From: an uncultured Chryseobacterium sp.
GTDB lineage: Bacteria > Bacteroidota > Bacteroidia > Flavobacteriales_C > GCA-002722245
Assembly: GCA_964406465.1 (NCBI GenBank)
Contig: CAYORT010000012.1
Location: forward strand, 7,653-71,652
Direction of reading: 5' to 3'
DNA length: 64,000 nt
Under the pieces are notes generated by a model, which made no database searches, had not been told where the DNA came from, and saw nothing but the letters and a program-made list of their open reading frames with translations. The position numbers and the translations under genes were made by a program. Positions within the stretch are counted from its first letter, which is position 1, and the number at the start of each line of letters is the position of its first letter. Shown here one piece after another: positions 16,112 through 17,369 of the stretch.

Positions 16112-16150
16112 CCACTCTTAAATGTAGCACTTACCCAGTTTGTCATCCTA

Positions 16151-16336
16151 TGTTTGTAGAAAATAAAAAATTATACCTACTACAAACAAAAGGGAAAAGA
16201 GAAAGGAAACAAGCAATCATTTGTCATTAGGCATTAAGCCCGTTCAGGATGTTAGTCCCTTTCTCTTTTCAACTTAAACCTGAACAGTTCATGCGGCCAC
16301 GAAGCCTGAATGTAGGATTGATAGGTCAAGTTGAAA
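16151..16336 (+). ncRNA. Predicted IS110 bridge RNA: 5' hairpin, target-binding loop and donor-binding loop
   Basis: 9-bp hairpin 16151-16159/16180-16188; 13-bp stem 16194-16206/16258-16270 enclosing tttgtcat and tcaggatg; stem 16271-16281/16323-16332 enclosing acagttcat and gtaggat. Transcript ends are inferred. Confidence 0.8.
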
Positions 16337-16357
16337 CCCTTCATTAAAAAAAGATCT

Positions 16358-17329
16358 ATGTGTAAATTTACAGGAATCGACATTTCTAAGCAAACAATTG
16401 ATTGTAGTATTTTGAAAGAAAATGGAAAAGTAGTTCACAAAAAGTTAGGCAACAACCACAAGGGATTTGAGAAATTGCTAACTGAGTTGAGCGAAGATAG
16501 TCACGTTGTGATGGAAGCGTCAGGACCGTATTATTTGAAGCTAAGCACTTTTTTGTTTGAGAAAGGAATCAAAGTTTCGGTGGTAAATCCGTTAATCATT
16601 CGTCGTTTTTGTCAAATGCGTTTTCTAAGAACGAAAACAGATAAGAAGGATGCATCAATGATACGAGAGTATGGTGAATTGGAAAATCCAGCGTTATGGG
16701 AACCCGATGAGCCAATGATTCTAAAGTTAAAGCAGCTTAGTACTTGTATTGATTTGTTAGACAAAAGCATTACTGCTTCTACCAATCAGCTTCTTGCATT
16801 TAAAGAAATGCCTGGAACAGATGAAGACTTAATCAAGCAAATGCAATTTATCATTGAGATGAATGAAAAAGAGAAAGAAAAAATGGAAAAACAAATGGAC
16901 GAAATATCAAAACAGTATTACGGAAAAACTTATGAATGCTTGCAAAGTATTCCAGGCATTGGCCCCAAGACTTCAGCAATGTTGATTGCAATTACTGCCA
17001 ACTTCAGTAGTTTTGAACACTACAAACAACTAATTGCATATGTGGGATTAAATCCAAGAGTTTTTGAATCTGGAACCAGCGTAAAAGGGAAAGGGCATAT
17101 ATGCAAGATTGGCACCGCCAGACTAAGAAAAACAATATATTTATGCACATGGTCAGCAAAAAGAACGAACCCTCAGTGTGCTCAGATGTATGAAAGACTG
17201 CAAATGAAATGCAAACCTAAAAAAGTGATTAATGTGGCTATTGCTAATAAATTACTAAGACAAGCTTTTGCTGTAGGAAAAAAATTAGTCCCTTTTGAAG
17301 AAAATTTAAATATTTTAGTTGCAAATTAA
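16358..17329 (+). CDS. IS110-family transposase (bridge recombinase), intact, 323 aa
   Basis: GIDISK, VMEASG and KTDKKDA form the DEDD RuvC-like tetrad. LQSIPGIG and GLNP..ESG.SV mark the Tnp domain with its catalytic Ser. Confidence 0.95.
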   Translation: MCKFTGIDISKQTIDCSILKENGKVVHKKLGNNHKGFEKLLTELSEDSHVVMEASGPYYLKLSTFLFEKGIKVSVVNPLIIRRFCQMRFLRTKTDKKDASMIREYGELENPALWEPDEPMILKLKQLSTCIDLLDKSITASTNQLLAFKEMPGTDEDLIKQMQFIIEMNEKEKEKMEKQMDEISKQYYGKTYECLQSIPGIGPKTSAMLIAITANFSSFEHYKQLIAYVGLNPRVFESGTSVKGKGHICKIGTARLRKTIYLCTWSAKRTNPQCAQMYERLQMKCKPKKVINVAIANKLLRQAFAVGKKLVPFEENLNILVAN

Positions 17330-17339
17330 CACAGTTCAT

Positions 17340-17369
17340 CCTGAGGTACCCCGAAGGAACTATTGCCCT
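17340..17369. repeat. REP-like family A, distal part of the right arm (proximal ttgtcat remains at 16140-16146)
   Basis: cctgaggtaccccgaaggaactattgccct, exactly complementary to 16075-16104. Confidence 0.9.

What the first reader, a model, noticed from the sequence alone, without database searches (positions are those of the whole stretch)
16139..17344. IS110 element with a fully decodable bridge RNA: all four guides match its own target and donor
Seen: the left end folds into a 5' hairpin plus two internal loops, each capped by a ggc...gcc hairpin. Loop 1 holds tttgtcat (16220-16227), identical to the left flank 16139-16146, and tcaggatg (16244-16251), the reverse complement of catcctga (17337-17344). 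Loop 2 holds acagttcat (16284-16292), identical to the right end 17331-17339, and gtaggat (16312-16318), complementary to atcctat at the left end (16145-16151) with one G:T pair. The guide overlaps define an AT core, giving target tttgtc-AT-cctga and donor acagttc-AT-cctat. Known: this is the LTG/RTG/LDG/RDG architecture of IS621-type bridge recombinases, and the DEDD tetrad and Tnp serine are intact. Inference: an apparently active, compact (323 aa) Bacteroidota RNA-guided recombinase with an AT core, a candidate reprogrammable tool. I cannot say whether this specific element is already catalogued.
Basis: partly seen in the sequence, partly recalled or inferred. Interest (0 to 1): 0.92.

Follow-up and report, generated by a model that had tools for sequence, protein, structure and literature searches.

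The report
IS110 insertion sequence with bridge RNA
This is an intact mobile element of the known IS110 "bridge RNA" type in a freshwater Bacteroidota genome, and its guide RNA matches its own insertion site and ends and is detectably made in river samples, so it is a sound new example of a system described in 2024, not a new kind of system.

Summary
All four guide strings are at the stated coordinates. The 323-aa ORF (16358-17329) is an IS110 DEDD/Tnp recombinase. It is 34% identical to IS621, and D8, E53, D95, D98 and S238 align to the IS621 catalytic residues.

In 45 non-redundant relatives from Bacteroidota genomes:
- The RNA fold is supported by compensatory changes (20 of 29 pairs).
- The right target guide covaries with the right flank (118/132 matches against 59 when permuted).
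- One left-guide position covaries with the left flank.
- The left donor guide covaries with the right end.

- The supported target is YGTC-AT-NNNGA (11 bp). The two extra T matches and the G:T pair are not supported family-wide.
- 323 aa is ordinary for this family.

New here:
- The target is a 37-bp palindromic dispersed repeat.
- The circle junction would rebuild a Bacteroidota TTG-N20-TAnnTTTG promoter.
- Six river metatranscriptomes hold contigs over the bridge-RNA region. In four runs they end at 16336, three bases past the donor-loop stem. The ORF has almost no cover.

Mobility is untested: the element is single-copy, and no circle or empty site was seen. Verdict: new member of a known kind, moderate interest.

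The parts
16075..16111 (.). Left arm of a 37-bp palindromic repeat doublet (REP-like). On its minus strand, at 16100-16110, it carries a second, unoccupied, perfect 11-bp target TGTCATCCTGA.
   Evidence: perfect 34-nt inverted repeat 16075-16108 / 17336-17369; the reconstructed empty site folds at -74.9 kcal/mol with a 37-bp stem; the minus-strand target; arm depth of about 50-330 against about 2-26 for unique flanks in five DNA runs (X11 shows no enrichment), with many different flanks.
16139..16146 (+). Left target half tttgtc plus the left copy of the AT core (16145-16146). Only tgtc+AT is supported family-wide.
16147..17337 (+). IS element body. It is 1193 bp when one core copy is counted. 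No terminal inverted repeats.
   Evidence: ends located by the conserved ATCCTATGTTTG and CACAGTTCAT motifs; relatives measure 1183-1306 bp; ends read directly.
16149..16156 (+). tatgtttg, which fits the Bacteroidota -7 promoter box TAnnTTTG at the left end.
   Evidence: nearly invariant in 45 junctions, well beyond the 4 nt that pair with the RDG.
16151..16188 (+). 5' hairpin (tgtttgtag / ctacaaaca). It overlaps the -7 box. A hairpin of this form and position is not conserved in relatives.
   Evidence: (window z = -5.1; median z of relatives -0.45)
16194..16270 (+). Target-binding module: outer stem 16194-16206 / 16258-16270, LTG 16220-16227 (supported part 16222-16227), capping hairpin 16230-16240, RTG 16244-16251.
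   Evidence: (I11)
16271..16333 (+). Donor-binding module: closing stem caactt / aagttg, LDG 16284-16292, capping hairpin about 16295-16307, RDG 16313-16318 (taggat). 16312 g is probably unpaired.
16336..16336 (+). 3' end of the RNA seen in river metatranscriptomes, 3 nt past the closing pair of the donor-loop stem.
   Evidence: contigs end at 16336 in X25, X26, X27 and X29, and the X26 contig runs on into Illumina adapter sequence. DNA contigs of X8 and X11 cross this point.
16358..17329 (+). Bridge recombinase gene, 323 aa: DEDD RuvC-like domain (D8, E53, D95, D98) and Tnp domain (S238).
17319..17321 (+). ttg, the -33 element of the promoter that would form across the circle junction (TTG-N20-TAnnTTTG).
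   Evidence: the TTG is highly conserved at this distance in 45 junctions.
17331..17344 (+). Right donor end acagttc, right copy of the AT core (17338-17339), and right target half cctga.
17340..17369 (.). Remainder of the right arm of the palindromic repeat. The arm starts at 16140-16146 and is split by the IS 7 bp in from the loop.

Best explanation
16147-17337 is an intact IS110-group insertion sequence. Its left end encodes a bridge RNA of about 150-190 nt and its body encodes a 323-aa DEDD/Tnp bridge recombinase. By analogy with IS621, the RNA's first internal loop pairs with both strands of the target (supported positions YGTC-AT-NNNGA, here tgtc-AT-cctga). The second loop pairs with the joined ends of the excised circle (acagttc-AT-ccta). 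A recombinase tetramer then exchanges strands at the AT core. The element sits 7 bp inside one arm of a 37-bp palindromic dispersed repeat. Shown here: the sequence matches, the RNA fold with compensatory changes, guide/flank and guide/end covariation in relatives, the aligned catalytic residues, and RNA over the left end in environmental samples that ends just after the donor-loop stem. Inferred: RNA-guided recombination itself; a circular intermediate whose junction forms a TTG-N20-TAnnTTTG promoter; and, in the resident copy, bridge RNA made by read-through from the upstream host gene while the recombinase stays nearly silent.
For: All four guide strings were verified. The protein has Pfam PF01548 and PF02371 and NCBIfam NF033542 'IS110 family RNA-guided transposase' at 200 bits. 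It matches IS621 (8wt6) and ISCro4 (9t56) at E about 1e-42 and is 34% identical to IS621, with D8/E53/D95/D98/S238 aligned to IS621 chain D13/E62/D104/D107/S243. All five are invariant in 29 homologues. The fold has z = -4.1, and the consensus structure of 61 relatives has compensatory changes in 20 of 29 pairs. RTG +1..+3 matches the right flank 118/132 against 58.8 +/- 6.0 permuted, with 0 of 10000 permutations reaching it. LTG -4 matches 32/44 against 20.7, with 1 of 10000. The LDG T-to-A change is mirrored in the right end in four non-redundant elements, with no discordant case at that position. The junction motif TTG-N20-TAnnTTTG is conserved in 45 elements. RNA contigs at 100% identity cover 16079/16081-16336 in four runs and stop at 16316 or 16330 in two more. 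The ORF has no cover except one 175-nt piece, and DNA runs cross into the ORF. Relatives are multi-copy with different flanks in complete genomes, so the clade is mobile. The architecture and mechanism follow PMC11208160 and PMC11208158.
Against: There is no direct evidence that this copy moves. Its depth equals that of its flanks (7.4 against 8.0 and 5.0 in X1), and no circle junction or empty site was seen, although contigs cannot show rare forms. The strand and 5' end of the RNA are unknown because contigs have no direction. The RNA contigs cross the flank/IS boundary, so they come from read-through and not from the predicted junction promoter. GTC and GA are invariant in both guide and target, so RNA pairing there cannot be told apart from protein or repeat constraint. 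Handshake guides could not be identified. Rfam has no matching family.
Confidence: 0.88

Rival explanations
1. The element is a genuine bridge-RNA IS but is immobile or domesticated: a single resident copy whose RNA is only the tail of the upstream gene's transcript, and which no longer transposes.
For: The element is at single-copy depth although its target repeat is very abundant in the same samples. An unoccupied perfect 11-bp target lies 35 bp away on the other arm. There is almost no recombinase RNA in six metatranscriptomes. No circle or empty-site joint was seen in the six DNA runs laid.
Against: The ORF is intact with all catalytic residues. All four guides still match perfectly at every family-supported position. 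Both halves of the junction promoter are intact. Low recombinase expression and rare excision are the normal resident state of IS621 (PMC13626964). Assembled contigs drop rare forms.
Confidence: 0.3
2. The internal copies of the end and flank sequences act as DNA sites (subterminal recombinase-binding repeats) and not as RNA guides, and the fold is incidental.
For: The donor-side strings are nearly invariant, so most of them carry no covariation signal. GTC and GA are also invariant.
Against: The stems around the loops keep pairing through compensatory changes (20 of 29 pairs), which is selection on RNA. The target-side guide triplet changes together with the flank in different elements. An RNA with a discrete end just past the second stem exists in nature. 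The homologous IS621 and ISCro4 proteins are solved or studied in complex with such an RNA (PMC11208158).
Confidence: 0.03
3. The matches are chance in AT-rich DNA.
For: The window has 37% G+C, and short words recur (many 11-16-nt repeats).
Against: Four matches of 6-9 nt sit at the exact loop positions defined independently by a 61-sequence structural alignment. Permutation tests across relatives reached the observed score in 0 and 1 of 10000.
Confidence: 0.01

Closest known systems
IS621 (E. coli) and ISCro4/IS622 bridge recombinase systems (Durrant et al. 2024, PMC11208160; Hiraizumi et al. 2024, PMC11208158; Perry et al. 2025 preprint)
   Same: The recombinase has two domains, DEDD and Tnp, with the same catalytic residues. 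The bridge RNA is encoded in the left end, upstream of the gene. It has a 5' hairpin and two stem/internal-loop modules, target loop first and donor loop second. LTG and LDG are identical to the top strand and RTG and RDG are complementary to it, with the core included in all four. Both insert into palindromic repeats. A promoter is split across the circle junction. The RNA ends just after the donor-loop stem.
   Different: Only 34% protein identity. The core is AT, not CT. The target supported by natural variation is 11 bp (4+2+5), against the 14 nt reported for IS621/IS622. The promoter halves fit the Bacteroidota TTG / TAnnTTTG type, not sigma-70. Target and donor share TC immediately left of the core, where IS622 design rules ask for non-matching positions 6-7. 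Handshake guides were not identified.
ISPpu10 / ISPpu9 of Pseudomonas putida (bioRxiv 10.64898/2026.03.19.712850; PMC12288879)
   Same: IS110-family elements that insert almost only into REP sequences, often convergent REP pairs. A target hairpin lies next to the recombination site.
   Different: In ISPpu10 the post-integration junction is reported to terminate read-through and keep the bridge RNA quiet. Here RNA contigs run from the host gene across the split repeat into the left end. The ISPpu10 figure legend places its bridge RNA in the right end.
The Bacteroidota clade recovered here (80 loci, for example in Mucilaginibacter sp. FT3.2, Polaribacter sp. Hel1_85, Flavivirga jejuensis, Cyclobacteriaceae and Bacteroidales MAGs)
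   Same: Same RNA architecture, same conserved ends (ATCCTATGTTTG ... CACAGTTCAT), same YGTC-AT-NNNGA target logic, same junction promoter, 1183-1306 bp.
   Different: These loci are 45-57% identical in protein to the window element, and the closest metagenomic proteins are at most 70% identical. Their guide triplets differ. In most relatives the IS sits at the outer edge of a repeat hairpin, whereas here it sits on the loop side of one arm of a doublet.

Membership tests
IS110 family (IS110 group) bridge-RNA insertion sequences | N-terminal RuvC-like DEDD domain with the four acidic residues | tested here: met
   PF01548 at E = 1.3e-24. D8, E53, D95 and D98 align to the IS621 DEDD residues and are invariant in 29 homologues.
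IS110 family (IS110 group) bridge-RNA insertion sequences | C-terminal Tnp domain with the catalytic serine | tested here: met
   PF02371 at E = 1.6e-24. S238 aligns to IS621 S241 (chain S243) in the YESGSS / FESGTS motif and is invariant.
IS110 family (IS110 group) bridge-RNA insertion sequences | Curated family model score above cut-off | tested here: met
   NCBIfam NF033542 'IS110 family RNA-guided transposase', 200.2 bits against a cut-off of 140.
IS110 family (IS110 group) bridge-RNA insertion sequences | No terminal inverted repeats; a short core repeated at both junctions and no longer duplication | tested here: met
   The ends cctatgtttg... and ...cacagttc share no inverted similarity. 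AT is present at 16145-16146 and 17338-17339.
IS110 family (IS110 group) bridge-RNA insertion sequences | Structured non-coding RNA in the long left end upstream of the recombinase (the IS1111 group has it in the right end) | tested here: met
   The left end has 211 nt before the ATG, against 8 nt after the stop codon. Fold z = -4.1. The consensus structure has 20 of 29 covarying pairs.
IS110 family (IS110 group) bridge-RNA insertion sequences | Two internal loops whose 5' and 3' sides match target and donor, with the core in all four pairings, and which covary with them | tested here: met
   Covariation is shown for RTG +1..+3, LTG -4 and one LDG position. The other guide positions are invariant, which is neither for nor against.
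IS110 family (IS110 group) bridge-RNA insertion sequences | The RNA is expressed | tested here: met
   Six of six river metatranscriptomes hold contigs over 16074/16084 to 16316/16336. Four end exactly at 16336. The strand is not determined.
IS110 family (IS110 group) bridge-RNA insertion sequences | Promoter reconstituted across the circle junction | tested here: inconclusive
   TTG-N20-TAnnTTTG is conserved in 45 junctions. Its match to the Bacteroidota promoter consensus rests on my own knowledge. No circle or transcription start was observed.
IS110 family (IS110 group) bridge-RNA insertion sequences | RNA-dependent recombination of donor and target; circular intermediate | not testable with these tools
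   Only assembled contigs were available. No junction or empty-site joints were seen in the six DNA runs laid.
IS110 family (IS110 group) bridge-RNA insertion sequences | Handshake guides that pair after top-strand exchange | tested here: inconclusive
   The bases 3' of the core complement (gt in the target loop, tg in the donor loop) do not fit the IS621 rule. Target and donor share TC left of the core.

The most novel reading that the evidence does not exclude
In this Bacteroidota clade the choice of target couples bridge-RNA supply to host transcription. By landing inside or just ahead of a terminator-like repeat hairpin downstream of a gene, the resident element would have its bridge RNA made as a processed 3' tail of the host mRNA, ending at 16336. 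The recombinase would stay silent until a circle forms the TTG/TAnnTTTG promoter. This would be the opposite of the insulated resident state reported for ISPpu10.
Probability: 0.3. Interest if true: 0.5.

Novelty: new member of a known kind. Interest (0 to 1): 0.35.

Why it matters
It adds a cleanly decoded, apparently intact bridge recombinase from Bacteroidota to a family used for genome engineering, and it comes with three practical points. First, a clade of at least 45 elements shows that natural variation touches only 4 of 11 target positions, which warns against assuming free programmability. Second, its expression signals are of the Bacteroidota type, which matters for anyone wanting a bridge system that works natively in Bacteroides or Flavobacterium. 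Third, environmental RNA data support a bridge RNA with a defined 3' end made from a resident copy. None of this changes the known mechanism.

Tried and rejected
Copy number and other repeat copies in the window's own genome could therefore not be counted directly, and metagenome contig depth was used instead.
- Rfam 15 gave no relevant hit (one chance snoRNA match at E = 0.43).
- blastn against the plasmid collection found no match.
- The palindrome arm has no further copy in the 64-kb window at up to 3 mismatches.
- The dispersed repeat at 3211-3277 / 4370-4437 noted by another reader belongs to an unrelated family.
- I tested whether LTG positions -5 to -10 and RTG positions beyond +5 pair with the flanks. 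They match at chance level. The idea that the extra t at -6 explains which arm was hit is therefore weak.
- I tested whether the 5' hairpin is conserved. Relatives often have some AT-rich hairpin before stem 1, but not in a conserved form or position.
- I looked for circle-junction or empty-site joints in the six DNA runs laid and found none. Contigs break at the repeat arms, so this says little.
- An RNA contig in X25 and X26 joins the left arm to a different upstream sequence. I treat this as an assembly path through the repeat, not as a second insertion.

Full report
OBSERVATION.
- tttgtcat at 16220-16227 equals 16139-16146.
- tcaggatg at 16244-16251 is the reverse complement of 17337-17344.
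- acagttcat at 16284-16292 equals 17331-17339.
- gtaggat at 16312-16318 is complementary to 16145-16151 with one G:T.

The stretch 16147-16345 folds into a 5' hairpin and two stem/internal-loop modules, each capped by a ggc...gcc hairpin. The fold has z = -4.1, and none of 200 shuffles folds as well.

PROTEIN. The ORF is best read from the ATG at 16358 (323 aa), which is where its homologues start.
- It carries PF01548 (DEDD_Tnp_IS110) and PF02371.
- It passes NCBIfam NF033542, 'IS110 family RNA-guided transposase', at 200 bits against a cut-off of 140.
- It aligns end to end with the solved IS621 and ISCro4 recombinases at E about 1e-42, and it is 34% identical to IS621.
- D8, E53, D95, D98 and S238 align with the IS621 catalytic residues and are invariant in 29 homologues.
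- The nearest proteins among 5.8 billion are at most 70% identical, so this is a new IS by the usual convention. I could not consult ISfinder.

FAMILY TEST OF THE GUIDES. A profile scan of species-representative genomes returned 80 loci, nearly all in Bacteroidota. Several genomes hold 4-6 identical copies in different places. I located the ORFs, the conserved ends and the four guide segments in each locus.

The RNA region aligns well across 61 distinct sequences. Its consensus structure has 29 pairs, 20 of them with compensatory changes.

Among 45 non-redundant elements with both flanks:
- The three bases after the core in the right target guide match the right flank in 118 of 132 cells, against 58.8 +/- 6.0 when flanks are permuted. 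No permutation out of 10000 reached the observed value.
- The base four positions left of the core (T or C) matches in 32 of 44, against 20.7 permuted. One permutation out of 10000 reached it.
- GTC, AT and GA are invariant in both guide and flank.
- Positions further out match only at chance level.

The left donor guide carries a T-to-A change in four non-redundant elements, and all four have the same change in their right end. The right donor guide pairs with ATCCTA only; its seventh position does not pair in nearly all relatives.

The supported target is YGTC-AT-NNNGA, not an 8+8 match. The G:T pair is probably not a pair.

TARGET. A perfect 34-nt inverted repeat flanks the IS. Joining the flanks gives a 37-bp stem with a 28-nt loop at -74.9 kcal/mol, with the IS sitting 7 bp into the right arm. 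In five of the six DNA runs laid, the arms have about 50-330 units of contig depth against about 2-26 for the unique flanks, and they join to many different flanks. They are therefore a dispersed REP-like repeat. The IS itself has the same depth as its flanks.

The other arm carries an unoccupied perfect 11-bp target on the minus strand. Relatives also insert at the edge of repeat hairpins. This fits what is known for IS621, ISPpu9 and ISPpu10 (PMC11208160; PMC12288879; bioRxiv 10.64898/2026.03.19.712850).

EXPRESSION SIGNALS. Aligning 45 reconstructed circle junctions shows a strongly conserved TTG in the right end. It lies exactly 20 nt upstream of a nearly invariant TATGTTTG at the left end. 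In the window these are 17319-17321 and 16149-16156. From my own knowledge this fits the Bacteroidota promoter consensus (-33 TTG, -7 TAnnTTTG). It would be the counterpart of the junction promoter of IS621 (PMC11208160). In the resident copy no TTG lies at the right distance in the flank.

RNA IN NATURE. Fifteen river metatranscriptomes hold 50-75% of the sampled words of 16147-16400. A share of 75% is what cover up to 16336 would give.

I laid six of them on the window.
- All six have 100%-identical contigs starting at 16074-16084, where the repeat arm breaks the assembly, or at 16011.
- Four end exactly at 16336. In one of these the contig continues into Illumina adapter sequence.
- The other two stop a little earlier, at 16316 and 16330.
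- The ORF has no cover except one 175-nt piece.
- The neighbouring genes are covered at similar depth.
- DNA runs from river samples cross 16336 into the ORF, so the break is not an assembly artefact.

Position 16336 lies three bases past the closing pair of the donor-loop stem. This is good evidence for a stable RNA covering the bridge-RNA region.

There are limits to this evidence. Contigs carry no strand. The 5' end is unknown. The contigs cross the flank/IS boundary, so this RNA comes from read-through out of the upstream gene and not from the junction promoter.

WHAT IS NOT SHOWN. No circle junction, empty site or second copy was seen. Handshake guides could not be assigned. Target and donor share TC left of the core, and in this element they share TCATCCT.

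COMPARISON AND VERDICT. By every testable criterion this is a member of the IS110 group of bridge-RNA elements. It works like IS621 and differs in four respects: the AT core, the shorter supported target, the Bacteroidota-type promoter halves, and only 34% protein identity. At 323 aa it is not unusually compact.

The class, its RNA architecture and covariation across thousands of orthologues were published in 2024 (PMC11208160), and NCBI's annotation models already name such proteins RNA-guided transposases. I rate it a new member of a known kind, of moderate interest. The most useful additions are the environmental RNA evidence, the clade-wide target logic and the junction promoter.

Noticed in passing
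window 16073-16121 and 17337-17373: The palindrome arms are a high-copy dispersed repeat in five of the six DNA metagenomes laid (depth about 50-330 against about 2-26 for unique flanks). Intact, IS-free copies have variant loops and arms, for example ...acttacccagtatgtcatcctcacgaag... in X3.
   Followed up: partly
window 16100-16110 (minus strand): A second, unoccupied, perfect 11-bp target TGTCATCCTGA lies on the other arm of the same repeat doublet.
   Followed up: partly
L068 (Polaribacter marinus), about 420 nt upstream of the recombinase gene: A truncated first copy of the left end and bridge RNA stops inside its donor-loop hairpin (...acagatcattagacAT), where a second full left end (cctatgtttg...) begins. 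This looks like an insertion of the element into another copy's bridge-RNA DNA.
   Followed up: no
L005, left end: The left-end motif is duplicated in tandem (cctatgtttaccgatcctatgtttaccgatc).
   Followed up: no
window 17383-17461 and about 18224-18302: A contig in X3 'goes back' from 17800 to 17383-17461 with 423 other letters between.
   Followed up: no
window 17752-18219: A 155-aa ORF matches DUF2204, a nucleotidyltransferase of unknown function (E = 3e-6). It lies just downstream of the repeat doublet and is expressed in the metatranscriptomes.
   Followed up: no
window 3211-3277 and 4370-4437: Inverted copies of a different dispersed repeat, unrelated in sequence to the IS target repeat.
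   Followed up: partly
L069-L073 (Mucilaginibacter sp. FT3.2) and L054-L064 (Polaribacter sp. Hel1_85): Identical copies of one element sit at targets that differ from the guide by one base at +1 or +2. This is natural evidence of single-mismatch tolerance in the right target guide.
   Followed up: partly
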